DNA of 64,000 nucleotides from Ignavibacteriota bacterium (GCA_963776275.1 CAVZMI010000020.1:128001-192000), one strand, 5' to 3'. Positions 38,495 to 52,400 are shown, numbered from the stretch's first letter. Program-made: numbers and translations. The notes: generated by a model from the sequence alone, not told the origin.

Positions 38495-39311
38495 CTATCG
38501 CTCAAAGCCTCCAACCTTGTGAATCCGGCCGAGACGCTGACCAAGGAAACGTTCACCGACCTCAAGAAATTTATGGGGAATATCGCTTACGTGAAACTGG
38601 ATGTTCGGACGTTGTGTGCTCGGATTTTTAAGATCGCGTAAGGTAAGAATTTCTTCAACAATCCCGCCTGTCGCCTCTCCGGAATCTATCAGCGTTATCG
38701 CTCCGCGCAATACTTTTTCAATCGTATCCCGTAGGATCGGATAATGTGTGCATCCCAGAACAAGCGTATCGATGCTTTGTGTCGTCAGGGGGAAGAGATA
38801 TTCTTTTGCGATTAATTCCGTTGCTGCGTGGTGGGTCTGATCCTTCTTCAGCAAGCGGTACAAAAAGCGGACACGCCTGGCTGAAGACTTCTATGGTCGG
38901 ATCAATTTGATAAATAGCGCTTTTATAAATATTACTTGCAATAGTTCCCAGTGTGCCGATCACGCCGACCCGTTTTTTCTTGGTTTCTTTGACAGCGGCA
39001 GCCGCACCGGGAGCAATCACTCCGACGACAGGAATCGAGCCCGCACGTTTTTGAACAACATCAAGCGCCACGGCTGAGACCGTATTGCATGCAACCACAA
39101 TCATTTTCACATCGTTTGAGAGGATAAATTCTGTATCTTGCAGCGCGTACTCGCGCACAACCTGGGCCGATTTCGGGCCATACGGTACACGGGCGGTATC
39201 GCCGAAGTACACGATGTTTTCATTCGGAAACTGCCGCATAAGGGCGCGGACAACTGTCAATCCGCCGATACCCGAATCGAAAACACCGATGGGTTTTTCG
39301 TTCGCTGTCAT
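38495..39311 (-). pseudogene. murI: glutamate racemase, frameshifted near 38838
   Basis: FDSGIGGLTV and ACNT in one frame, LGCTHYP in another; break just after PLAEEG; likely sequencing indel. Confidence 0.88.
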
Positions 39312-41969
39312 TTTAATTCAACATTTTTAAATGTGAGGATTGTTTTGAGAATAGCCTCCCGGATTTCAGTTTTTCGTCCTTCCGCCACCGGCGCACCGGA
39401 TCTGTCGACAACATAAAATGAATCAACAATACCGTCGCCGCGCGTCGCAATTTTTGCAAAAGTAATATTGAGGTTTTGTTCAGAGATCGTCTGTGTCACC
39501 CGATACAGGAATCCCAGCGCATCGGCTGCAAACACATCGATAATCGTAAAGCGAGGATCATCCTCAAATTCTACATCAAAGCGTATTACAGGACTTAGAT
39601 ATCCCCTGGTGCGACGTTTCCATTTACGCCGGTGATGTTCAAAGAGATGTTCAATATCAATCCGGCCTTCGATAACGGCATTGAGTTCATCATGGATCTT
39701 CTGGCAGACATCTTCTGTAAGATGCTGCTTTGTCATTGCATCGGTGACGCGAAATTTATCGATAATGATAGCGTCGGTCCGCGTAAAAATGTTCGCATCA
39801 AAAATATTTGCATCGTTGGCCGAGAGAACGCCGCAGAACTTCGAGAGGGCAAACGGCGCGTCAGTGGAAATAATCGTGACTTCCGTATATCCTTCACGTG
39901 TGCGAAAAAGAGTAGAGACGGTTTCATTATCACCGATTTTTGATATATGGAAAGCTATTTCTTCTTCATCGAAGGTACCGACGTATTGTGGACTATCGAT
40001 TTTCTGAAAATGTTCCTCTACGATTTCACGAGAATGTATACCGTTGAGTTTTGTCACAACCACCTCGACGGCCTCCCGATACCGATCGAGGTGAAGTGCA
40101 CGAAACTCTTCCTGTTTCAAACCGGCGCCTATTATCTCCTTCGCCTGCAGATATAATTCCTGAAGAAGCACGGCCTTCCAATTTGTCCATGTCGTCGGAT
40201 TTACTGCAGAAAGATCGGCATAGGTAATAAGGTACAGGCGATCGAGCTGGAAGGTGAAGGTAAATATTTCGGCAAATTCAGCTACCGTCTCGACATCGTG
40301 TATATTCCGCCGAAAACTTACCTGCTCCATTAAAAGGTGATTCTTGATAAGGAAAGTAACATCTTCAATATAATCTTCTAATCGCAGCCGTGTAAGAATC
40401 GACACGGCCATCGTTGCACCGATCACTTCGTGGTCATCGATTTGAACAGGTTTTGCGATGTCGTGGAGCAATAGTGTCATGAATAAAATACCTCGCTTTT
40501 TTCGGGCACGATAGAGATCTCCCAAGACACTTTCATCTCCTTCCAGGGCCTCGAACCGTTGAAGTGTGATAAGCGTATGCTCATCGGCTGTGTAATAATG
40601 ATAGCGACTGTGCTGGTAAAACGCGACAAGCGCTTCGAATTCCGAAATGAATCGGCTGAGCACAGTGAGGTCGGCCATTTCATATAACACATTTGCCACA
40701 TGCGAAGCTGATTCGATGATCGAACGAAAGATAAGGAGCGGTTTTTCGGAAAAAACCTCGGTATCCGGAACACGCACGGCGTTTTTATGAATTGCCGTTC
40801 GCAGCCTCTGACTGAGCCTCGGGCACCTCATGGCTCTGCATAAGACTAAAAGCTTCCATGGATGTCTCTAATGAGAATCCGTTCTCAACAGCCGCTGAAG
40901 TAATATCTAGCATGTCGCCACGAATGAGAAACCGGTCATCTATGATTTTCTTTTCGTCCTTTTTAATGCCGGGGGGCAATCGAAGTCGATACTTCTCGCG
41001 GAGCTGCCCGGTGAGTATCTGATTTAACCGCAATAGTGTCTTCGCGCTCAGATAATATTCCTGCATGAATCGTTCGACAGCCTGCCGGCTGCCGGAAGAT
41101 TCGAAGCCGAGCCCGTCGGCAATGACGCTTTGCAGCGAGTAATCAAGCGAGTCATGAAGCGTCTTTCGAAGAAAATGAACTTCGTTCCGTGTACGAAGCA
41201 GAAAGTTGAGCGCTGTAATCGCAGTATCGGACTGTATGAAATCCAATTCACCTTCTCGGGTGAGGAGCTCGAGCATTTCAACACATGCCGAGCGATGTTG
41301 TCCGGGTGTTGTCTCGCAATATCGGACATCCGAAGATCGATAGAGCCAGAGAATTGCATGAACATCGCGGAGTCCGCCTGCGCTTTTCTTAATATTCGGT
41401 TCAAGGAGTTTTGCCGAATTGCCGTATTTTGCGTGACGTGCGGTAAGTTCCTCGAGCACACGGTCGATAAAAAAATTGTCGGCCAGCTGCGCAACGGTTT
41501 CCGAACGGCGCCGGAAAAAGTCCGAGGCGATATCGTGATTTCCGCAGAGAAAGCGCGCTTCGAGAATCGAAGCCCAGTTCTCGACTTCGGTGGTTGAAAA
41601 ATGCATGCATTCGTCAATCGACCGTACACTGTGCCCGACATCCAATCCGCAATCCCAGAATGAGTGAAGAAGCTCCTTTACGGCAGGTTTGAGTTTTTCT
41701 TCATGTTTATTCTCATCGTGAACGAGCATGATATCAACGTCCGATTTCGGGCAGAGCTCTGTTCGTCCATATCCCCCTAACGCAAAGAGCGCAATTCCGG
41801 AGAGCGCATCGTTCACCGAAGCGCCGGCTAACGATATGATGACCTCATCCATCATAACGGCGAGGGCGGTGCATACGGTAAATCCGTCGGCGCCATTACG
41901 ATGCAATTGATATACGGCATCGCGCCGGGATGCAAGAACCTGCCGCTGTTCCTGGATTATTGTTTTCAT
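39308..41969 (-). pseudogene. glnD: [protein-PII] uridylyltransferase, frameshifted near 40825
   Basis: ALGGYGR..SDVD, GGLRD, YTADEH, LLHDIAK (HD domain) and two ACT domains; likely sequencing indel. Confidence 0.88.
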
Positions 41970-42037
41970 AAAGAAAATATATGAAAGCGGCAGACAAGTT
42001 ACAACTTTAATACTTTGAAGATAGCTAAAAAAATAAT

Positions 42038-42088
42038 ACGATATTATTGTCCGCACCACTTGACAAGACGACAAAAATGTCGTATATT
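42038..42088 (+). promoter_or_regulatory. sigma70-type promoter with two palindromic operators
   Basis: TTGACA 42060-42065, 17 bp, TATATT 42083-42088; ACGACA-AAAA-TGTCGT at 42068-42083; degenerate ACGATA-TTAT-TGTCCG at 42038-42053. Confidence 0.65.
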
Positions 42089-42137
42089 CTATTGTAGGCC
42101 ATAGCCACACGAATTGCAGTATTTACCGGAGTCTATT

Positions 42138-43067
42138 ATGGGTTTACCGGCACGCATCAGCATCGGCATGGGGGCATGGGATATCGAGCCGTATAAATAT
42201 CTGTTTTATCCTGCCGCACGCGAGAAGCACTTCCGGCTGCTGGAGTTTTATAGCCGATTTTTCGACAGCGTCGAAGTAAATGCCACATTCTATAATGCGG
42301 CATTTACACCGTTCCACGCCAAGCAATGGCTTGACGATGTGGCCTGTCAGCCCGATTTTGTATTTCTCGTTAAGCTGTATCGCGGTCTGACACACACGTT
42401 CGATGCCACCGCGGCCGACATCCTCGGCATCAATGCATTTCTTGCGCCACTGGAAGAAGCCGGCAAGCTTGGTGGACTTCTTCTGCAATTCCCATTCCGG
42501 TTCACGAACCGGCTGGAACACCGGCGGTATATCGTTTTGCTTAGCCGTATATTTCGTCATCATCGAGTATTTATCGAATTGCGGCATGATTCATGGCACA
42601 ACCGCGCAATGGTGGAGTTTTTCGAAGAACACGGACTTTACCCGGTCAATGTCGATCTTCCGCAGCTACCGCATTTTATGCCGTTGACCGCGATTTCATA
42701 CAAGGGATACGCCTATTTCCGGATGATGGGCCGAAATGCCGCCGCATGGAATCACCCCGAACTGGAGAATCGATATACGTACAGCTACAGCCAGGAAGAA
42801 CTTGACGATCTTCTCCGGAAGATCAGCATAATATTAAAAACGGCACGCCGTGTCTATGTGGTATTTCATAATGATGCGAAAGGACATTCGTTGCTCAACG
42901 GCTTCACACTGCGTCATTTGCTCAATCGACACAACATTGTCGTCCCGGACCGCACCGCGCACACATTTCCGGAACTCACGGGAATCGGCTCTGTCGCCTC
43001 TGCGCCGGTGCCGCTGTTCGATGAAAAAGTTTCGCTTCACTTTCAATCAATCAATTCATCACCCTAA
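42138..43067 (+). CDS. DUF72 (UPF0759/YecE) TIM-barrel protein
   Basis: VEVNATFY, KL.RGLTH, LLQFP..F, ELRH.SW, YFR..GRN and Y.YS..EL motifs. Confidence 0.9.
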   Translation: MGLPARISIGMGAWDIEPYKYLFYPAAREKHFRLLEFYSRFFDSVEVNATFYNAAFTPFHAKQWLDDVACQPDFVFLVKLYRGLTHTFDATAADILGINAFLAPLEEAGKLGGLLLQFPFRFTNRLEHRRYIVLLSRIFRHHRVFIELRHDSWHNRAMVEFFEEHGLYPVNVDLPQLPHFMPLTAISYKGYAYFRMMGRNAAAWNHPELENRYTYSYSQEELDDLLRKISIILKTARRVYVVFHNDAKGHSLLNGFTLRHLLNRHNIVVPDRTAHTFPELTGIGSVASAPVPLFDEKVSLHFQSINSSP

Positions 43068-43080
43068 TTCAGGAGACATG

Positions 43081-43581
43081 ATGACACACTCACTCACAGA
43101 ATTTTTTACCGACTGGAAAAATGAAAGTTCCTCAACATTGAAAATCTTCAACGCCCTGACAGACGCATCGCTTACGCAGAAAGTAACGCCCGACGGGCGC
43201 TCGCTCGGATTCCTGGCATGGCATATTATCCTGACGCTCGGAGAAATGGCCGGACAGTGCGGCCTGACCATCGACGCACCTGCCGAATCGAAGGCTGTAC
43301 CAAATAAGGCATCCGAGCTTACAGCGGCATACGAAAAAGCTTCGGCGTCGCTGGTCAGTAAAGTGCAATCACAATGGACCGACGCGATGTTGAACGACGA
43401 ACTCGACATGTACGGCGAAAAATGGAAACGCGGCGCCGTGCTCGACAGCATTATCCGCCACGAAATTCATCATCGTGCACAAATGACGGTATTAATGCGT
43501 CAGGCGGGAGTGAAAGTCCCGGGCGTGTACGGTCCGGCCCGTGAGGAATGGGCAAAAATGGGCATGAAGCCGATGGCATGA
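43081..43581 (+). CDS. DinB superfamily four-helix protein
   Basis: RSLG.LAWHI and HEIHHRAQ....R..G..VPG.YGP motifs; AGGAGA RBS. Confidence 0.88.
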   Translation: MTHSLTEFFTDWKNESSSTLKIFNALTDASLTQKVTPDGRSLGFLAWHIILTLGEMAGQCGLTIDAPAESKAVPNKASELTAAYEKASASLVSKVQSQWTDAMLNDELDMYGEKWKRGAVLDSIIRHEIHHRAQMTVLMRQAGVKVPGVYGPAREEWAKMGMKPMA

Positions 43582-43771
43582 GAAACATCGCGGAGAGGGC
43601 GAGGTGAAAAGCTTTTTTGCTTCATGAGATTTCGGATTTCGGATTGATGATTTCGGAATTGGAGGACAAGGCTACACGGGGACTTGGGTGTGAATACAGT
43701 TCGTTCCCATTCATAATTCACAATTCCGCCTTCATTTTATTCCGGCGGACGTGTCGTAATTCACAACTTAC

Positions 43772-44509
43772 TTATCGCCCTGAAAATTCATTCCCTGCGG
43801 GGGTGATGCACTTGGACGTGTCGTTCTGAGAATTGTTTACAAGTTTGGAGACCGGATAGGCTTTCATGTCACGGGCTGGATAAGGTGTAAGAGATTTCGC
43901 AAGCTCGGTCATGTTTCTGAACCCCCGGTCGAGCCACTGTTCAAAGCGTTCTTCAGGAAGGATGACCGGCATACGGCTGTGGAGTCTGGACATAAGCTCA
44001 TTGGGCGTGGTGGTAATGATTGTGAAGGTAGGAAATTCTTCGCCGGCCGGATTTTTCCAGATCGAGAAGAGACCGGCAAACATGAACGGCCGCTCGTCTT
44101 TCATGCGGATGCAGAAGGGAATTTTTTCCGTAATGTTTTTTTTCTTTCCCTGCTTTTCAACCTGCGTTATGGTTGCTTTCCACTCATAGAAAGCGTCGGC
44201 AGGGATAAGGCAGCGGCTCCCTTTGAAGTAGGGGGAATAGAGTCTGCTTTTTTCAAGTGTTTCTGCTTTTGCATTGAAGGTCGAAAAATTTACTTTGCCG
44301 TCTTTCGACCAGTGCGGAATAAGCCACCACTGCATTTTTTGTACAAGGGGCGTACCGTCACGGACAACCACAACCGGCATGTGCTGCATGGGTGAGACGT
44401 TATAGCGGGGAAGACCATCAAAGACGGTTCCGATATCCCGAATCTTATTGATCATTGCAAATGATGCAATAACTTTCTTACCGTCGATCAAAACATAACG
44501 GCCACACAT
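43772..44509 (-). CDS. SOS response-associated peptidase SRAP (YedK/HMCES)
   Basis: N-terminal MCGRY; RYNVSP, FNAKAE, RCLIPAD.FYEW and H.RMPVIL motifs. Confidence 0.93.
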   Translation of the reverse strand: MCGRYVLIDGKKVIASFAMINKIRDIGTVFDGLPRYNVSPMQHMPVVVVRDGTPLVQKMQWWLIPHWSKDGKVNFSTFNAKAETLEKSRLYSPYFKGSRCLIPADAFYEWKATITQVEKQGKKKNITEKIPFCIRMKDERPFMFAGLFSIWKNPAGEEFPTFTIITTTPNELMSRLHSRMPVILPEERFEQWLDRGFRNMTELAKSLTPYPARDMKAYPVSKLVNNSQNDTSKCITPAGNEFSGR

Positions 44510-44626
44510 ACACGTCTCCTGTGCTCTGTGCAGAATAATGTAATGAAATTCTTATCGAAAACACAATATCTCTTTCGGCAATCTGCCTGTACTAACGTTT
44601 CCGCCAATACCATTGAGGAGCGTGGA

Positions 44627-45457
44627 ATGAAGAAACCTCAAATCCCATCGGACCGGTCGGAAATCGGTCTTGACGACCCGTCCGCCTCTGTCGTACCACG
44701 CGTTGTCCAGCGGGATCGGCAGAACGTCGGGGTTTGTTCTCCAGAGCTTCGCATCACCTACGATGTGTTATCACGACGCTTTACCGCGGCACCGCCGGGA
44801 AAGCTGTATCTACTATACGGCGATGCTGTGGTATTCCGGTTTGCCCTAGCTCTGGCATCACACGCCCTTTCGCATCAAGCCGCCATTGCCGTTGTCGATG
44901 GCTGCAACAAATTTGATGCGCATTCCATTGCCCGATTCGCGCGGGAACACGGATATTCGCCCGACGATTTTCTCAACCACATTTTTATTTCCCGCGGATT
45001 CACCTGTTATCAAATGGAAGCGGTTGTTAACGACCGCTTACTGCCGTTTATTCAACGCATCGGCGGAAACACTGCAATAATTTTCGGACTCCTCGACACG
45101 CTTTACGACGAGCAGGCACCGCTGAACGAGGTACGCAACATTCTCCGGCGTATAGTCATACGGCTTCACGACATGAAGGCGGTAGGAATTTCAGTCCTCC
45201 TCGCCTCGCGGCAATGGAACGTCCCGGACCAGAGAAGAAATGCGCTGTTTACAACACTACAATCGGGCATGGATATCGTCTGCCGCGTTGAAATGAACGA
45301 AGAGATGAAACCAAAGTTATATCTTGAGCAACCGGGAAAGGCGCTTCATCATGGGACGGACAGTACCAACATTCACCAATATCATCGATGCGGAAATCGC
45401 CAGCTGGTCGAAATACCGCCGCGGACTGCGCAAAGAAGACCAGGAGGCGTTCGATAA
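44627..45457 (+). CDS. inactivated RadA/RecA-like (ImuA-like) protein
   Basis: degenerate P-loop (LYLLYGD), VDGCNKFD and I.ISRGFTCYQM motifs; GAGGAG RBS. Confidence 0.75.
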   Translation: MKKPQIPSDRSEIGLDDPSASVVPRVVQRDRQNVGVCSPELRITYDVLSRRFTAAPPGKLYLLYGDAVVFRFALALASHALSHQAAIAVVDGCNKFDAHSIARFAREHGYSPDDFLNHIFISRGFTCYQMEAVVNDRLLPFIQRIGGNTAIIFGLLDTLYDEQAPLNEVRNILRRIVIRLHDMKAVGISVLLASRQWNVPDQRRNALFTTLQSGMDIVCRVEMNEEMKPKLYLEQPGKALHHGTDSTNIHQYHRCGNRQLVEIPPRTAQRRPGGVR

Positions 45458-45614
45458 CCTCTTCCGTGCGGCACAGATTCATCTTGCGGAAAATTTTTAT
45501 GCCATGCGGACGATCCCGTTCGAAAGCATCGTCATATCGATGCTCGTCGAACAACAGAAACAGATTATACAGCTTCACGAGCAGGTGAACCACCTGAAGC
45601 GCGATACACAATGA
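45351..45614 (+). CDS. small helical PolB2-associated protein (arCOG07300-like)
   Basis: MGRTVPTF...W.KYRRGLRKEDQ..FD.L...PFES...SMLVEQ; ATGA overlap with the polymerase. Confidence 0.75.
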   Translation: MGRTVPTFTNIIDAEIASWSKYRRGLRKEDQEAFDNLFRAAQIHLAENFYAMRTIPFESIVISMLVEQQKQIIQLHEQVNHLKRDTQ

Positions 45615-47881
45615 TAACGACTGTCAGAGGATGGCTGTTCGATCTCTATCCATCGGCTCAGGGAATGACTCTCTGGATTATCGATGAAGATGGAAACACA
45701 CACCGGTGCCGGGATACATTCACTCCAACATTCTATCTGCACCTCCCGCCGCCTGAGATGGCACGTGCAGAAAGGATGGCAGAAGCGTGTCCGGTTCCCG
45801 TGGCACATTGCCGGACACAGCGGATGGAACTCTATTCCGGCACCATGATAGATGTTGTCGCCTGCACCGTTTACGACGCCATGCGCGCCCGCGAGGCGGT
45901 ATGGTTCTTCGAAAAAGAATTTCCGCATTTTACATTTTTCAACACCGATATTCCGATTGCACAGTTGTATCTCTACCACACCCAACTTTTCCCTCTGGCA
46001 TTCGGCGACTACGGTATTGACGAAACCGGTCGGCTTGTGGATACTACTCTCCACGACACTGTCGGGTCAACGGAGTATCGCCTCCCCCCTCTCTCGATCA
46101 TGGCGCTCAGGAATACAGATTCATTTGTTCCGCTCAAACATCAGCGTTCGATACAACTGGAAATCAGTTACGACAACACTGACTACGTGCTTGAACAGGA
46201 GAATCCCGCGGATCTTCTCGAAGGACTCAACCGCCACCTCGCACGATACGATCCGGATATCCTTCTTACCGAATACGGCGATGCCACGCTGATGCCGATG
46301 CTTTACTCTCTTTCCCGGCATACCCGTGTTCCGCTGCTTCTGAACCGCGACCGTACCGCCGATTACCGGATTACCAAAGGATCAAGTTATTTCCAATATG
46401 GAAAAATCATCCATAAGGACGGCGCATTCGAACTTGCCGGACGATGGCACATCGATACCGAGAATTCTTTCACTGTCGTAGAATCGGATCTCGACGGTCT
46501 TTTCGAGCTCTCGCGCATCACGCAGATTCCGGTGCAGCATCAGTCGCGTGCCAGCATCGGTAACGGACTTTCATCGATGCAATTCTCGTGGGCATACCGT
46601 AATAATATTTTGATCCCGTCGAAAAAACGTGAGCCCGAAGAATTTAAAAGTGCGGCAACGCTGATACTCGCCGACCGTGGCGGACTGACCTTCCAGCCGC
46701 CGATCGGTTACCACGAAGATGTCGGAGAGCTGGACTTTGTCTCGATGTACCCGACAATCATGGTCCGGCATAATGTCTCGCCCGAAACGGTCAACTGCCG
46801 TTGCTGTCCAGATGCGCCGCCCGCGGTGCCGGAACTTGATTACAGAATCTGCAAACGCCGTGAAGGAATTGTCCCAGCAACGCTCCGCCCGGTCGTTGCA
46901 CGCCGGTTGTACTACAAGAAAAAAAAGAAAGAACTCAAGACCCGAAACGATCCTCTCTGGATCCGCTACGATCGGCGCCAGACGGCGCTCAAGTGGATGC
47001 TCGTTACATGTTTCGGTTATCTTGGATATAAAAATGCCCGCTTTGGAAAAATCGAAGCGCATGAATCGGTTAACGCGTTCTCGCGCGATGCTTTGCTGAC
47101 CGCGAAAGAGATAGCCGAACGCAACGGCTTTCATCTACTCCATGCAATTGTCGATTCCATGTGGCTGAAGAAACCGGGGGCAACTGAACAGGACTATGAG
47201 CGGCTCTGCGATGAAATCTCGGCCGCGACATCCATCGATATTTCCCTTGAAGGTATTTACAAGTGGATTCTCTTTCCGGCATCCAGAATGGATTCTCTGC
47301 TGCCGACAGCGAACCGTTACATCGGGTGGTACCAACACGGCGAGTATAAAGTCCGCGGGATCGAGGTTCGTCGGCACGATACACCGAAGTTTATCAAGGA
47401 AATGCAGAAACAGCTCTTCGATATTCTCGCACATGCCGGGAATGTCGATGAAATCAAGCGTTATATTCCAAGCGTTCTCGAGTCGGCACAATCATCGCTT
47501 CAACTTCTTAGTTCGGGAAAGGCTAATCCGCTCGATCTTGTTATTCGAAAAAATATTTCACAGGAGGCCTCGGAATACAGCAACAACAGTGTGAATGCGG
47601 TCGTCGCGCGGATGCTCGAAGATGCAGGCGTTCATCTTGCGGCAGGCGAATCCATTTCCTATATTCTCATCGATGCAACAGGAAAAAAGAAGCCGGAAAA
47701 GGCGAAACCGGTTGCGCTTTATGCATTCGAGGATGGATACGATATTGAAAAATATATCGAATTGTGTCTGAAGGCCGTCGAGACGCTCCTTCTCCCTTTT
47801 GGGTGGAATATGGAAAAACTGGCAGAATATCTCGGCCTGAACAATAAAAACCATCGAGAAAAAGGGGCAATTTGTCCTTGA
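45611..47881 (+). CDS. family B DNA polymerase, PolB2/Dpo2 group
   Basis: motif A DFVSMYP, motif B LKWMLVTCFGYLG..FGKIEAHE, variant motif C AIVDSMW, RGIE.RRHD; no intact exonuclease motifs. Confidence 0.88.
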   Translation: MITTVRGWLFDLYPSAQGMTLWIIDEDGNTHRCRDTFTPTFYLHLPPPEMARAERMAEACPVPVAHCRTQRMELYSGTMIDVVACTVYDAMRAREAVWFFEKEFPHFTFFNTDIPIAQLYLYHTQLFPLAFGDYGIDETGRLVDTTLHDTVGSTEYRLPPLSIMALRNTDSFVPLKHQRSIQLEISYDNTDYVLEQENPADLLEGLNRHLARYDPDILLTEYGDATLMPMLYSLSRHTRVPLLLNRDRTADYRITKGSSYFQYGKIIHKDGAFELAGRWHIDTENSFTVVESDLDGLFELSRITQIPVQHQSRASIGNGLSSMQFSWAYRNNILIPSKKREPEEFKSAATLILADRGGLTFQPPIGYHEDVGELDFVSMYPTIMVRHNVSPETVNCRCCPDAPPAVPELDYRICKRREGIVPATLRPVVARRLYYKKKKKELKTRNDPLWIRYDRRQTALKWMLVTCFGYLGYKNARFGKIEAHESVNAFSRDALLTAKEIAERNGFHLLHAIVDSMWLKKPGATEQDYERLCDEISAATSIDISLEGIYKWILFPASRMDSLLPTANRYIGWYQHGEYKVRGIEVRRHDTPKFIKEMQKQLFDILAHAGNVDEIKRYIPSVLESAQSSLQLLSSGKANPLDLVIRKNISQEASEYSNNSVNAVVARMLEDAGVHLAAGESISYILIDATGKKKPEKAKPVALYAFEDGYDIEKYIELCLKAVETLLLPFGWNMEKLAEYLGLNNKNHREKGAICP

Positions 47882-48059
47882 TGACCGAAAAAGGGGGGGG
47901 TGACTTTAAAAATTTCTGTACTTGATTTTGAATTAAGAAATGAATAACATATATTGTTTATAGTTGCATCTATTTTCATCTCAATTGCTATCGATTAGTG
48001 TTTAAATAGATACATATTGTTGATATTTTGTTACCATTCATTAATCAAGGAGAACATAT

Positions 48060-49547
48060 ATGAGAAAATTTTTATTACTTGGTATGTTTCTCTGTGTGGT
48101 TGCTGTCATTCCAAACAGCGTTGTAAAAGCACAGGGGATTGATTCTTATCCACGTCTTGGTGCTCAGCTCCTTATTGGAGATCCAGCCACAGAATTTTAT
48201 GAGAGTAATGGACTCAAGATGACATATCAAGCACGCGGTCTCTTACGTTATTCTCTGTCAAAGTATCTTAAGGGTGAGATTGGCGGCGGCTATGTAATGA
48301 TGTCCGGACTCGATTTCAGACATGCTTATTATCGGACAAATATTTATCCGCTCGATTTTCGCATTTTGTTATTCCCGATTCAGAGTAAATCCGTTAGACC
48401 ATTTATCTATGCCGGGGCAGGAGGACTTTATTATCGTGTTGTTAAACTTCCACAATGCGTCAATCCTCCACAACCGATTCCGCTTCTCATCACAGGTCAG
48501 GATGGATTAGCAGCATATGTACCGGTAGGAGTCGGAATTGAATTCGCTCTTTCGCAAGCAGTTTCACTGGAATTGGTATGCGGATATAACCATGTATTCA
48601 ACGACAATCTCAACTACTGTAAATTCCCATGGGATGGCGATTATAATACGGACGCATGGGCAACAGTCGGTCTCGGACTCACCTTTGCACTGGGCAGAGG
48701 AAATGCCGATGATGATAAGGATGGTTTAACGAATGCCGAAGAGGAAAAGCTCGGAACCGATCCGGACAATCCCGATACGGATGGCGACGGCCTAACCGAT
48801 GGCGACGAAGTAAAAATCTATCGCACCAATCCTCTCAAAGCCGACACCGATGGTGATGGACTGAAAGATGGTGATGAAGTAATGAAATATAAGACTGACC
48901 CGCTGAAGATTGATACCGATGGTGACGGATTGAATGACGGTGATGAAGTAATGAAATACAAGACCGATCCGCTGAAGGTTGATACCGATGGCGACGGATT
49001 AAGTGACGGTGATGAAGTAATGAAGTATAAGACGGATCCGTTGAATAAAGATACCGACGGCGATGGACTTACAGATGGTGATGAAGTACTGAAATATAAA
49101 ACCAATCCGTTGAACAAAGATACCGACGGTGGCACTGTGGACGACGGTACTGAAGTGAGACGCGGAACGGATCCTCTCAATCCGGCCGATGATGTAGTGA
49201 AAATGCAGGCTCCGATTATACTTGAAGGAATCGTATTCGCTTCAGGAAAAGCGGATATAGAACCCGCTTCAGCCGCTACACTTGAAAAAGCGCTGAAGAC
49301 CCTGAAGATCTATTCCGATATCGAGGTCGAGATCTCCGGCCATACCGACAAGCTCGGCTCACGTGCATTGAACATGAAACTATCGCAGCGTCGTGCCGAT
49401 GCAGTAAAACAATGGCTTGTAGACAAGGGCATCGATGCAAAACGGATAACAGCGAAAGGATATGGTCCTGACAAACCGATCGACTCAAACAAGACAAAGG
49501 AAGGCCGCCAGAAGAACCGGCGCATTGAATTTGTCAGAATCAAGTAA
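48060..49547 (+). CDS. OmpA family protein with beta-barrel and Ca-binding (TSP3-like) repeats
   Basis: signal peptide; DTDGDGL.DGDEV repeats; GHTD..G, NMKLSQRRA and NRRIE motifs. Confidence 0.9.
   Translation: MRKFLLLGMFLCVVAVIPNSVVKAQGIDSYPRLGAQLLIGDPATEFYESNGLKMTYQARGLLRYSLSKYLKGEIGGGYVMMSGLDFRHAYYRTNIYPLDFRILLFPIQSKSVRPFIYAGAGGLYYRVVKLPQCVNPPQPIPLLITGQDGLAAYVPVGVGIEFALSQAVSLELVCGYNHVFNDNLNYCKFPWDGDYNTDAWATVGLGLTFALGRGNADDDKDGLTNAEEEKLGTDPDNPDTDGDGLTDGDEVKIYRTNPLKADTDGDGLKDGDEVMKYKTDPLKIDTDGDGLNDGDEVMKYKTDPLKVDTDGDGLSDGDEVMKYKTDPLNKDTDGDGLTDGDEVLKYKTNPLNKDTDGGTVDDGTEVRRGTDPLNPADDVVKMQAPIILEGIVFASGKADIEPASAATLEKALKTLKIYSDIEVEISGHTDKLGSRALNMKLSQRRADAVKQWLVDKGIDAKRITAKGYGPDKPIDSNKTKEGRQKNRRIEFVRIK
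48705..49185 (+). repeat. degenerate 69-bp (23-aa) intragenic tandem repeats
   Basis: DTDGDGLxDGDEVMKYKTDPL units, about 7 copies. Confidence 0.85.
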
Positions 49548-50992: not shown

Positions 50993-52400
50993 TCAAACCT
51001 TGGTAAGTTTCACGACATTTTCAATATGATAGGTATGGGGAAACATGTCGAGGGGCTGTACCGCATCAATGCGATATCCTCCTTCAACTATTACCTTGAC
51101 ATCACGGGCCTGAGTAGTGGGATTGCAGCTTACATAGACTATTCTCCGTGATCCCAGTCTGATGACTTCCTGCACAACTTTCGGATGCATTCCACTGCGA
51201 GGTGGATCGATTACGAGGACATCAGGAATCGGATTCGAGCGCATCCATTGAGTGTCTTTTGTAAGCCGGTCTTTCAAATCACCAAGAACAAATTCACAAT
51301 TCGTAATATTATTGTACCGGGCATTCATCACTGCATTATCAACTGCACTGGGAATATTATCAATCCCGACAACAAGAGCGACTGAATCGGAAATGAACAA
51401 TGCAATCGTTCCTGTCCCGCAATACAGATCATACACGACATCGGCCGTCTGGAATTCTCCATATTCTTTTACAACCCGATATAGCCGTTCAGCCTGGAAG
51501 GTATTCGTTTGAAAAAAAGAATTTGCGGAAATAATAAATGTGAGATGTCCCAGTTTTTCTCGAATCGGCTCCTTCGCCGTAATAGATTTTCTGAATCTCA
51601 CCGTATGCAATTTGAGCCTTCTTCTCATTGATAGTATTCACAAATGTCGTGATCCCCGGAAATCTTTGAACCAGTAAATTCGATAATTCCCCTGCAGTAT
51701 CGGAAATATCTTTCCCCGTCACAAAGTTGACCATAACCTCCCCCGTCTGTCGTGCCTCGCGAACCACAAGGAACCGAAGGTAACCGTTACCTGTCGTCGT
51801 GTCATAGACCGGTAGTTTCCGTTCGATGCAATGCGAACGGACCGTATTAAGAAGATCTACGGTGAGCTGCGTTTGGAGATGGCATTCATTGATGTCCAGT
51901 ATCTTGTCGTATCTCTGCGGAACATGGAATCCGAGTGCAAAATTGCGCCGTGAAACATCCGGCTTCTCGAGCTCTTCAGCCGTAAGCCATTGTTTATCGC
52001 CGAAAGAAAATTCCATTTTATTGCGGTAATGATAAATTGGATCGGCCCCGATCACCGGATTGACCGCGATACCTCGGAATCCTCCGATTCGTTCGAAAGC
52101 ATCGATGACGTTCTGTCGTTTATATTCGCACTGCTTCGAATATTCAAGATGCTGCCAGCGGCATCCACCGCACACTCCGAAATACCTGCACCGCGGAGCG
52201 ACACGAAACGATGATGGTTGGAGAATTTCGATCGCTCGTGCTTCTGCAAAATTCTTTTTGACTTTGAAAACAACGACACGGGCCTCGTCCCCCGGAACAA
52301 CTCCCTCGACAAACACGACAAAATCTTCATGCCGGGCTACCGACTTTCCTTCGAAAGCAGCATCATCGATATGCAGAATAAATTCATCACCCTTTTTCAT
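50993..52400 (-). pseudogene. rlmD: 23S rRNA m5U1939 methyltransferase, frameshifted near 51572
   Basis: TRAM domain, C...CGGC and YRNKMEF in one frame; FFQTN, DLYCGTG, DPPR, VSCNP and DMFP.T.H.E in another. Confidence 0.88.

What the first reader, a model, noticed from the sequence alone, without database searches (positions are those of the whole stretch)
42038..47881. Archaeal-type PolB2 cassette clustered with SRAP, DUF72 and DinB: candidate bacterial damage-tolerance module
Seen: overlapping genes for an inactive RadA/ImuA-like protein (44627), a small MGRTVP-type helical protein (45351) and a family B polymerase (45611). The polymerase has PolB2 signatures: KWxLVxCFGY, motif C reduced to IVDS instead of DTDS, no intact exonuclease motifs. 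SRAP is divergent from this trio, with DUF72 and a DinB-superfamily gene alongside. Established: archaeal PolB2/Dpo2 occurs with arCOG07300 and inactivated RadA, and Sulfolobus Dpo2 is damage-inducible; SRAP/HMCES crosslinks abasic sites in ssDNA; SRAP and DUF72 often neighbour imuA-imuB-dnaE2 cassettes. Inference: PolB2 replaces ImuB/DnaE2 here in an abasic-site protection and bypass module. No imuB, dnaE2 or umuC is in this window. Bacterial PolB2 homologs are known from genomics, but I know of no characterisation of this six-gene arrangement.
Basis: partly seen in the sequence, partly recalled or inferred. Interest (0 to 1): 0.85.

Follow-up and report, generated by a model that had tools for sequence, protein, structure and literature searches.

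The report
Known bacterial PolB2 mutasome gene cluster
This is a normal copy of an already described bacterial DNA-damage-tolerance operon (inactive RadA, a small helper protein and an archaeal-type polymerase), sitting beside abasic-site and repair-like genes that share a repressor binding site with it in related genomes.

Summary
Window 44627-47881 encodes iRadA, PPB2 (starts MGRT) and a PolB2 polymerase. SRAP lies divergent upstream, with DUF72 and a DinB-family gene before it.

The idea is largely in print. Makarova 2014 linked bacterial PolB2, arCOG07300, inactive RadA and lexA. Timinskas 2025 named the iRadA-PPB2-PolB2 mutasome and reported SRAP, DUF72 and lexA enriched beside it.

The window's genome has no DnaE2, ImuB or UmuC. 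It has one Pol IV, one DnaE and one S24 repressor with a phage-CI-like HTH.

What I add is a 16-bp palindrome, ACGACA-W4-TGTCGT. Its only perfect copy in the genome lies inside the DUF72 promoter (42068-42083). The next-best site is at the repressor's own gene.

In relatives the same palindrome sits directly before iRadA, DUF72, Pol IV or the repressor gene (27 of 30 perfect sites examined). All 9 clusters with an adjacent XRE-type repressor have it; none of 8 with another S24 protein do.

The SRAP/iRadA spacer here has no such site, so how the polymerase genes are induced remains open. The DinB-family gene is linked only in the closest relatives.

Verdict: a new member of a known kind, of modest interest.

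The parts
42038..42053 (.). weak upstream operator-like site (ACGATATTATTGTCCG), 30 nt before the main operator
   Evidence: Scores 7.7 bits on the position weight matrix (PWM). In relatives, paired sites lie 31-33 nt apart.
42060..42088 (+). sigma-70-like promoter, TTGACA-17-TATATT, upstream of DUF72
   Evidence: 11 of 12 consensus matches, the best in 41900-48200. The same layout occurs in L006, L007 and L013.
42068..42083 (.). 16-bp palindromic operator ACGACAAAAATGTCGT, in the promoter spacer
   Evidence: The only perfect match in the 3.7-Mb genome and the top PWM site at 29.3 bits. In the window, 0.33 matches at <= 2 mismatches are expected by chance.
42138..43067 (+). DUF72 (TIM-barrel, YecE-like) gene
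   Evidence: Pfam PF01904, E 4e-44. PDB 1vpq at 7.5e-29. ATG with GGAG 7 nt upstream.
43078..43581 (+). DinB-family (PF05163) gene, 11 nt after the DUF72 stop
   Evidence: Pfam E 3.6e-28. Among fetched loci, present only in L006 and L007, and in L059 of the same genus.
43772..44509 (-). SRAP (YedK/HMCES family) gene, divergent from iRadA
   Evidence: Pfam PF02586, E 1.4e-64. PDB HMCES at 5.7e-27 and YedK at 4e-17. N-terminal Met-Cys present.
44627..45457 (+). iRadA: RadA/Rad51-fold protein without Walker A and without the N-terminal domain
   Evidence: Family profile against PDB gives RadA at 3.7e-6. AF2 model has pLDDT 82.6. All Foldseek matches listed (ranks 1-50) are RadA/Rad51-family chains or complexes that contain them, E about 1e-10. 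LLYGDAVVF stands where a P-loop would be.
45351..45614 (+). PPB2 (arCOG07300 family): 87-aa helical protein with an MGRT N-terminal arm
   Evidence: M1, G2, R3 and T4 are invariant in 31 sequences. 39% identical to the small protein of a haloarchaeal PolB2 operon, E 8e-22. All-helical model.
45611..47881 (+). PolB2: family-B polymerase with a decayed exonuclease domain and IVD in motif C
   Evidence: D355-R356-G-G forms the conserved D(K/R) motif. Residues 338-352 contact iRadA in the complex model.

Best explanation
Window 44627-47881 is a bacterial PolB2 mutasome operon, iRadA-PPB2-PolB2, of the kind described by Timinskas et al. 2025. PolB2 lacks proofreading. It is predicted to work as a damage-tolerance (translesion or extender) polymerase, in complex with an ATPase-dead RadA and the small PPB2 protein.

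Three accessory genes lie upstream. SRAP shields abasic sites in single-stranded DNA. DUF72 is a TIM-barrel protein said to resemble UV-damage endonuclease. The third is a DinB-family protein.

The cluster belongs to a very small SOS-like regulon. Its repressor has a phage-CI-like HTH domain fused to an S24 domain and is encoded elsewhere in the genome. It most likely binds the palindrome ACGACA-W4-TGTCGT.

In this genome that operator overlaps the DUF72 promoter and the repressor's own promoter. DUF72 and the DinB-family gene are therefore the directly repressed genes. The polymerase genes are either reached by read-through across the antisense SRAP gene or are not under this repressor.

Shown here: gene identities, motifs, folds, synteny, operator distribution, and absence of DnaE2/ImuB/UmuC.

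Inferred: polymerase activity, complex formation in the cell, repressor-operator binding, and damage induction.
For: Identity of the polymerase:
- NCBIfam 'type B' model NF004416 scores 407 bits; Pol II models score <= 57 bits.
- 33% identity and 325 bits to a haloarchaeal plasmid PolB2, against 21% and 51 bits to E. coli Pol II.
- All 109 plasmid records that match are haloarchaeal; the 30 listed are annotated 'type B DNA-directed DNA polymerase', except one record that has no annotation.
- PDB matches cover only the polymerase domain, residues 283-737.
- Exonuclease motifs are absent, motif C is IVD, and D355-R356 is invariant.

Identity of the partners:
- PPB2 shows [M/V]GRT at the predicted start in 37 of 41 copies.
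- iRadA has a RadA fold and no P-loop.

Complex model of PolB2 with iRadA residues 38-240:
- Score 0.85; best of 3 controls 0.00.
- This mark was reached by 58 of 80 solved complexes and 2 of 110 mismatched pairs. The counts hold only roughly because my own alignments were used.
- The runs share >= 92% of contacts, and the partner's pLDDT is >= 85.
- The interface uses PolB2 residues 338-352, just before D355-R356, as the 2025 paper describes.
- Solved Rad51 and RadA structures with oligomerisation peptides exist, so part of the score may be recall.

Synteny:
- The trio is present in 40 of 43 fetched loci.
- PolB2 is found in 36 of 400 other genomes of the phylum, all in five families.
- One haloarchaeal plasmid has the same arrangement: SRAP divergent from iRadA-like, small protein, PolB2.

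Genome content: one Pol IV, one DnaE, one S24 protein.

Operator:
- One perfect site in the genome, at 42068-42083. The only 1-mismatch site lies at the repressor gene.
- 33 of 61 genomes of the order carry 1-3 perfect sites; the reversed control pattern occurs in 2 of 61.
- 27 of the 30 perfect sites examined flank PolB2-operon genes, DUF72, the XRE-S24 gene or Pol IV.
- 9 of 9 loci with an adjacent XRE-type S24 gene have the operator; 0 of 8 with an S24 gene lacking that N-terminus do.
Against: - No operator lies in the SRAP/iRadA spacer: the best PWM score is -8.7 bits. No promoter-like site was found there either. Damage control of the polymerase genes in this genome is therefore not shown.
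- PolB2 falls below NCBIfam's curated cut-off (407 against 516 bits).
- Motifs B and C are degenerate, so activity rests on analogy with Sulfolobus PolB2, as cited in PMC11791011.
- I saw no recognisable beta-clamp motif in the PolB2 C-terminus or the iRadA tail. This was by eye only; no profile search was run.
- SRAP is adjacent in only 6 of 43 fetched loci and the DinB-family gene in 2 of 43.
- The PWM included the window's own site among its 30 training sites.
- Related genomes are not independent samples.
- The repressor's cleavage site was not examined.
Confidence: 0.8

Rival explanations
1. The polymerase is catalytically dead. The three-protein complex then has a non-synthetic role, for example in recognising stalled forks or in regulating replication restart, as proposed for PolB2 before activity was reported.
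For: The first Asp of motif C is Ile. Motif B lacks the usual Asn, Ser and Tyr. The exonuclease motifs are gone. Makarova 2014 argued for inactivation (PMC4104785, passages read).
Against: The motif A Asp (D375), the second motif C Asp (D515) and K461 are invariant in 40 sequences. PMC11791011 (abstract and sections 3.1 and 4 read) states that S. islandicus PolB2, which carries the same Ile substitution, is required for targeted mutagenesis and is active in vitro.
Confidence: 0.1
2. SRAP, DUF72 and the DinB-family gene are only neighbours by chance or by local gene shuffling. There is no six-gene functional module.
For: SRAP is adjacent in 6 of 43 fetched loci, DUF72 in 8 of 43 and the DinB-family gene in 2 of 43. 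Most loci have the trio alone. SRAP is on the opposite strand.
Against: DUF72 carries the same operator that precedes iRadA in other genomes. It forms co-directional clusters lexA-DUF72-iRadA-PPB2-PolB2 (L046) and DUF72-Pol IV (L065, L066). SRAP lies divergent from an iRadA-like gene on a haloarchaeal plasmid, and within 4-8 kb of PolB2 on three others. Enrichment is reported in PMC11791011, section 3.1. For the DinB-family gene alone this rival is quite likely (about 0.5).
Confidence: 0.15
3. The cluster is a recently acquired mobile island, reflecting the horizontal transfer of PolB2 from archaea, rather than a resident part of this lineage's repair system.
For: PolB2 is of archaeal origin by the published tree (PMC11791011, section 3.1). 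Its closest plasmid-borne relatives are haloarchaeal.
Against: PolB2 is present in 8 of 8, 17 of 17, 7 of 10, 2 of 2 and 2 of 2 genomes of five families. GC content is 0.49-0.50, against 0.46-0.48 in the flanks, with no step. The flanking glnD-like and ompA-like genes are conserved in L006. The cluster uses the host repressor's operator.
Confidence: 0.03

Closest known systems
Bacterial PolB2 mutasome operon iRadA-PPB2-PolB2 (Timinskas, Timinskas and Venclovas 2025, PMC11791011; earlier Makarova et al. 2014, PMC4104785)
   Same: Gene order and orientation. The MGRT arm of PPB2. RadA fold without ATPase motifs. IVD motif C. The D(K/R) motif. A decayed exonuclease domain. PolB2-iRadA contact through the segment before D(K/R). 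SRAP and DUF72 nearby. A LexA-type regulator.
   Different: The regulator here has a CI/XRE-type HTH fused to S24 and is encoded elsewhere in the genome. The operator sits at DUF72, not at iRadA. A DinB-family gene is included. No clamp-binding motif was recognised.
Sulfolobus islandicus Dpo2/PolB2 with arCOG07300 and inactive RadA
   Same: Homologous three-gene set, and the same Asp-to-Ile change in motif C (as given in PMC11791011).
   Different: Archaeal host. According to the paper the regulator is Orc1/Cdc6-type rather than an S24 repressor. Sequence identity could not be measured because no Sulfolobus sequence was at hand.
imuA-imuB-dnaE2 mutagenic cassette
   Same: A damage-tolerance polymerase paired with a RecA-superfamily accessory protein. 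It is LexA-controlled and often has SRAP nearby (the SRAP point is recalled, from Aravind et al. 2013).
   Different: No ImuB or DnaE2 is present in this genome. The accessory protein is RadA-like, not RecA/ImuA-like. The polymerase belongs to family B.
Non-canonical LexA of Bacteroidetes (Sanchez-Osuna et al. 2021, PMC8565304)
   Same: A phage-CI-like HTH with an S24 domain, a palindrome at its own promoter, and control of translesion polymerase genes.
   Different: [quoted passage not shown] Here the motif is ACGACA-W4-TGTCGT. The terms Ignavibacter, polB and DUF72 do not occur in that paper's main text.
E. coli DNA polymerase II
   Same: Family B fold, and SOS-inducible.
   Different: Pol II is a single subunit with an active exonuclease and an intact DTD motif. 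It shares only 21% identity and 51 bits.

Membership tests
Bacterial PolB2 mutasome operon | iRadA, PPB2 and PolB2 genes adjacent, on the same strand, in that order | tested here: met
   44627-45457, 45351-45614 and 45611-47881, all on +. The same order holds in 40 of 43 fetched loci.
Bacterial PolB2 mutasome operon | First Asp of the motif C DxD replaced | tested here: met
   I513-V514-D515 aligns with E. coli Pol II DTD and with haloarchaeal IVD. D515 is invariant.
Bacterial PolB2 mutasome operon | Exonuclease active-site motifs lost | tested here: met
   No DxE, NxxxFD or YxxxD opposite the E. coli Pol II motifs. PDB matches start at residue 283. No exonuclease-domain Pfam hit.
Bacterial PolB2 mutasome operon | Conserved D(K/R) motif in the loop before motif A | tested here: met
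   D355, G357 and G358 are invariant and R356 is present in the window.
Bacterial PolB2 mutasome operon | PPB2 is a small helical protein with an N-terminal MGRT arm | tested here: met
   M1, G2, R3 and T4 invariant in 31 sequences. All-helical model with pLDDT 81.7. The trimer state was not tested.
Bacterial PolB2 mutasome operon | iRadA has a RadA/Rad51 core without the N-terminal domain or ATPase motifs | tested here: met
   Residues 1-40 are disordered, and no GxxGxGK[ST] motif is present.
Bacterial PolB2 mutasome operon | PolB2 binds iRadA through the segment preceding D(K/R) | tested here: met
   Model only: score 0.85 against a best control of 0.00. PolB2 residues 338-352 lie at the interface.
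Bacterial PolB2 mutasome operon | Placement in the bacterial PolB2 clade of a tree rooted with PolB3 | not tested
   No labelled PolB1 or PolB3 sequences could be obtained. Only pairwise and HMM scores are available.
Bacterial PolB2 mutasome operon | Beta-clamp-binding motif in iRadA or PolB2 (present in some members only) | tested here: inconclusive
   No QLxLF-like motif was seen by eye at either C-terminus. No profile search was run.
Bacterial PolB2 mutasome operon | Induction by DNA damage | not testable with these tools
   Only operator evidence is available. No RNA run was listed.
E. coli-type DNA polymerase II | Intact exonuclease motifs, an intact DTD motif, and an HMM score above cut-off | tested here: not met
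imuA-imuB-dnaE2 cassette | ImuB (a Y-family homolog) and DnaE2 present | tested here: not met
   The single IMS-domain gene scores as Pol IV (316.7 bits, above the 256-bit cut-off). Only one DNA_pol3_alpha gene is present. The genome is 96% complete.
SRAP (YedK/HMCES) | Full-length domain with the Cys2 nucleophile | tested here: met
   MCGRY at the N-terminus. Pfam positions 1-213 of 214 are matched. PDB matches to HMCES and YedK.
CI-like (non-canonical) LexA SOS repressor | HTH_XRE/CI N-terminus with an S24 C-terminus, and a palindromic site at its own promoter | tested here: met
   A site at C3:54688-54703 has 1 mismatch and scores 24.3 bits.
CI-like (non-canonical) LexA SOS repressor | Binds GGA-N5-TCC or CTAA-N5-TTAG | tested here: not met
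   The recurrent palindrome is ACGACA-W4-TGTCGT.
CI-like (non-canonical) LexA SOS repressor | RecA-stimulated self-cleavage and measured DNA binding | not testable with these tools
   These need biochemistry.

The most novel reading that the evidence does not exclude
DUF72, the DinB-family gene, antisense SRAP, iRadA, PPB2 and PolB2 form one damage-inducible transcription unit. It is fired from the single repressor-controlled promoter at 42060-42088.

On induction, read-through would switch on the mutasome. At the same time it would produce antisense RNA against SRAP. The cell would thus move from shielding abasic sites by SRAP crosslinking to processing and bypassing them.

More broadly, DUF72 would be a core SOS partner of translesion polymerases, PolB2 or Pol IV, in this order.
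Probability: 0.15. Interest if true: 0.65.

Novelty: new member of a known kind. Interest (0 to 1): 0.33.

Why it matters
PolB2 mutasomes are the only multi-subunit family-B translesion polymerases proposed in prokaryotes, and no bacterial one has been studied at the bench. This locus adds nothing new to the architecture itself.

The operator analysis does give a concrete regulatory handle that can be tested. It comprises a defined 16-bp site, a candidate repressor, and a tiny regulon of DUF72, the PolB2 operon, Pol IV and the repressor gene.

It also places the uncharacterised DUF72 family behind an SOS-type operator, in operons with two different damage-tolerance polymerases. That makes a DNA-repair role for DUF72 directly testable.

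Tried and rejected
- **Dual coding of the 107-nt iRadA/PPB2 overlap.** Synonymous diversity in PPB2 codons 2-35 against 36-70 is 0.47 against 0.49 in 18 loci with the overlap, and 0.556 against 0.570 in 17 without it. There is no extra constraint, so the iRadA tail is probably an unselected read-on.
- **Operator or promoter in the SRAP/iRadA spacer.** None found.
- **Terminator between the DinB-family gene and SRAP.** None found; the fold z-score is -0.38.
- **Third genomic site, C4:262 (19.0 bits).** No recognisable repair gene lies beside it.
- **PPB2 fold search.** No PDB match at E <= 0.001.
- **RNA evidence.** No RNA holder was listed.
- **The search for related loci with the single protein.** The survey was then done through the genome search and the fetch from genomes.
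- **Labelled PolB1/PolB2/PolB3/Pol II tree.** Not built, because no labelled PolB1 or PolB3 sequences were obtainable.
- **The listing of cluster members.** It gave almost no organism names.
- **Cross-referencing SRAP and PolB2 on plasmids.** This was limited by the 60-row listing, so only four examples were seen and no count is given.
- **Supplements of PMC11791011.** Table S1 and data file 1 could not be seen. They may already list this lineage, the DinB-family gene, or exact enrichment figures.

Full report
**1. What is there**

The stretch 42038-47881 holds six genes.

- DUF72: 42138-43067 +. PF01904, E 4e-44. PDB 1vpq at 7.5e-29.
- A DinB-family four-helix protein: 43078-43581 +. PF05163, E 3.6e-28. 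This is not Pol IV.
- SRAP: 43772-44509 -. PF02586, E 1.4e-64. It starts MCGR and matches HMCES and YedK.
- A 276-aa protein with no Pfam or NCBIfam hit: 44627-45457 +. A GAGGAG ribosome-binding site precedes the start.
- An 87-aa protein starting MGRTVP: 45351-45614 +.
- A 756-aa family-B polymerase: 45611-47881 +.

The last three overlap, by 107 nt and by 4 nt. Motif B is K461-WMLVTCFGY. Motif C is I513-V514-D515-S, where E. coli Pol II has DTDS. The Exo I, II and III motifs have no counterpart.

**2. Membership**

The polymerase scores 407 bits on NCBIfam NF004416 ('type B DNA-directed DNA polymerase'). That is below the curated cut-off of 516. It scores no more than 57 bits on the Pol II models.

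It is 33% identical (325 bits) to the PolB2 of a Halalkalicoccus plasmid and 21% identical (51 bits) to E. coli Pol II. All 109 plasmid records that match it are haloarchaeal. Solved structures match only the polymerase domain: Thermococcales PolB at 1e-49 and Sso Dpo1 at 2.5e-33, both from residue 283 on.

The 87-aa protein is 39% identical (E 8e-22) to the small protein of the haloarchaeal operon, and both start MGRT. M1, G2, R3 and T4 are invariant in 31 homologues.

The 276-aa protein has LLYGDAVVF where a P-loop would be. Its family profile finds RadA and Rad51 in the PDB at 3.7e-6. Its AF2 model (pLDDT 82.6) matches RadA/Rad51-family chains, or complexes that contain them, in every row that Foldseek listed (ranks 1-50; E about 1e-10). 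Residues 1-40 are disordered, so the N-terminal RadA domain is missing.

D355-R356-G-G is the conserved D(K/R) motif.

A complex model of PolB2 with iRadA residues 38-240 scored 0.85, with a best control of 0.00. That mark was reached by 58 of 80 solved complexes and 2 of 110 mismatched pairs. The counts hold only roughly because I used my own alignments. The runs share at least 92% of contacts, and the partner's pLDDT is at least 85. The interface uses PolB2 residues 338-352, just before D355. This is the mode published for other members. Solved Rad51-peptide structures may contribute to the score by recall.

Every defining feature that I could test is met. A labelled PolB1/B2/B3 tree was not built.

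**3. What is already in print**

Makarova et al. 2014 (PMC4104785, passages read) linked PolB2, arCOG07300 and inactivated RadA in archaea. They noted the same three genes, sometimes with lexA, in several bacteria.

Timinskas et al. 2025 (PMC11791011; abstract, sections 3.1-3.3 part 1 and section 4 read) made several points:
- They named the proteins iRadA and PPB2.
- They inferred a single transfer from archaea to bacteria.
- They found only the order iRadA-PPB2-PolB2 in bacteria.
- They modelled a heteropentamer.
- They reported lexA (bacteria), SRAP and DUF72 (both domains) enriched near polB2.

**4. Distribution and linkage**

PolB2 was found in 36 of 400 other genomes of the phylum. All lie in five families, at 8 of 8, 17 of 17, 7 of 10, 2 of 2 and 2 of 2.

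I surveyed 43 fetched loci; L006 is 98% identical to the window, and L016 is the same contig as L009. The trio is present in 40 of them. The exceptions are L010, L026 and L038. In L010 and L026 a response-regulator-like frame precedes PolB2.

- SRAP is adjacent in 6 of 43.
- DUF72 is adjacent in 8 of 43 by phmmer. By Pfam, 10 of 142 flanking ORFs from 37 loci are DUF72.
- The DinB-family gene is adjacent in 2 of 43.
- S24 peptidases are the commonest neighbours: 14 of 142 ORFs, of which 8 have an XRE/CI HTH and 6 a LexA_DNA_bind domain.

One haloarchaeal plasmid shows exactly the arrangement SRAP divergent from iRadA-like, small protein and PolB2. Three others have SRAP within about 4-8 kb.

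So the SRAP and DUF72 linkage is recurrent but not universal. The DinB-family gene is a local addition.

**5. The rest of the genome**

The genome is 96% complete. It holds:
- one IMS-domain gene, which scores as Pol IV (316.7 bits, above the 256-bit cut-off);
- one DnaE;
- one S24 protein of 223 aa with an XRE/CI-type HTH.

I found no DnaE2, ImuB, UmuC or UmuD. A second family-B polymerase with intact exonuclease motifs and DTD lies on contig C37, split into two frames.

**6. A shared operator (my addition)**

Upstream of iRadA in many relatives lies the palindrome ACGACA-W4-TGTCGT, often twice and 31-33 nt apart. It occurs, with at most 1 mismatch, in 27 of the 41 loci that have iRadA.

In the window's genome the only perfect copy is at window 42068-42083. 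There it fills the spacer of the best sigma-70-like promoter of the region, TTGACA-17-TATATT at 42060-42088, about 50 nt before DUF72. A weaker site lies 30 nt upstream, at 42038-42053.

The only 1-mismatch copy is at C3:54688, at the start of the XRE-S24 gene. PWM scores are 29.3 and 24.3 bits, then 19.0, and 15.2 or less for everything else. The window's own site was one of the 30 used to train the matrix.

Across 61 genomes of the order, 33 carry 1-3 perfect sites. The reversed control pattern occurs in 2. Of the 30 perfect sites examined, 27 flank a gene of this set: PolB2-operon genes (16), DUF72 (8), an XRE-S24 gene (9) or Pol IV (5). The classes overlap.

All 9 loci with an adjacent XRE-type S24 gene have the operator. 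None of the 8 with an S24 gene lacking that N-terminus does. By eye, most of those 8 show CTGT-N8-ACAG-like boxes upstream of a canonical lexA.

The motif differs from the two published for the CI-like LexA of Bacteroidetes (PMC8565304, passages read). Searches for 'Ignavibacteria, LexA, SOS' and 'DUF72, LexA' found nothing that describes it. The search ('COG1801, yecE, DUF72') listed 25 of 223 papers, and none of those titles bears on it either.

**7. What stays open**

In the window the SRAP/iRadA spacer (44510-44626) has no operator (best score -8.7 bits) and no consensus-like promoter. In relatives with the same layout this spacer is only 37-62 nt.

I found no terminator-like hairpin between the DinB-family stop and the 3' end of SRAP.

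L046 has lexA-DUF72-iRadA-PPB2-PolB2 all in one direction. Read-through from the DUF72 promoter across antisense SRAP is therefore a reasonable model, but it is unproven. No RNA run was listed.

The iRadA tail that overlaps PPB2 shows no sign of selection.

**8. Verdict**

This is an ordinary, intact member of the published bacterial PolB2 mutasome operon, with the published SRAP and DUF72 neighbours. Two things are new at this level. One is a candidate operator and repressor that tie DUF72, PolB2 and Pol IV into one small SOS-like regulon in this order. The other is the odd placement of that operator in this genome. Interest is modest.

Noticed in passing
window 39308-40831 and 40785-42110 (-): A glnD-like PII uridylyltransferase is split into two overlapping frames. 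The 98%-identical locus L006 has a single open frame. This is either a frameshift or an assembly error.
   Followed up: partly
window 38495-38863 / 38718-39311 (-) and 50993-51628 / 51489-52400 (-): A glutamate-racemase-like gene and an RNA-methyltransferase-like gene also appear split into overlapping frames. The family names are judged by eye from the translations. This suggests that the assembly carries indel errors.
   Followed up: no
G000:C37, locus L002 213-1526 and 1411-2559 (+): The genome has a second family-B polymerase with intact Exo I-III motifs and an intact DTD motif. It resembles Pol II models only weakly (<= 57 bits) and is split into two frames.
   Followed up: partly
representatives P0126, P0161, P0165-P0167, P0169, P0189, P0236 and P0252: Some PolB2 relatives are 1210-1306 aa long. 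In most of them the match breaks at query residue 468, which lies inside motif B. These look like intein-sized insertions.
   Followed up: no
loci L065, L066 and L062-L064: In sister families of the order, the same operator lies between an XRE-S24 repressor gene and a DUF72-Pol IV pair, or Pol IV alone.
   Followed up: partly
loci L028, L011, L042, L045, L047 (upstream of lexA): Other families of the order carry a canonical LexA next to the PolB2 cluster. By eye, paired CTGT-N8-ACAG-like boxes precede lexA. Two different repressor types therefore serve the same cluster within one order.
   Followed up: partly
loci L010 and L026: Here PolB2 is preceded by a response-regulator-like frame instead of iRadA and PPB2.
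   Followed up: no
window 45351-45457 and 17 related loci: The iRadA frame runs 83-107 nt into PPB2 in 18 of 35 loci. Synonymous-site diversity shows no dual-coding constraint.
   Followed up: yes
window 48060-49547 (+): An OmpA-family protein with five bacterial thrombospondin-type-3 repeats lies directly downstream of PolB2. It is conserved in L006 and L007.
   Followed up: no
PolB2 residues C396, C398, C399 and C414: Four cysteines between motifs A and B are invariant in 40 PolB2 sequences. They may form a metal site or a disulphide cluster.
   Followed up: no
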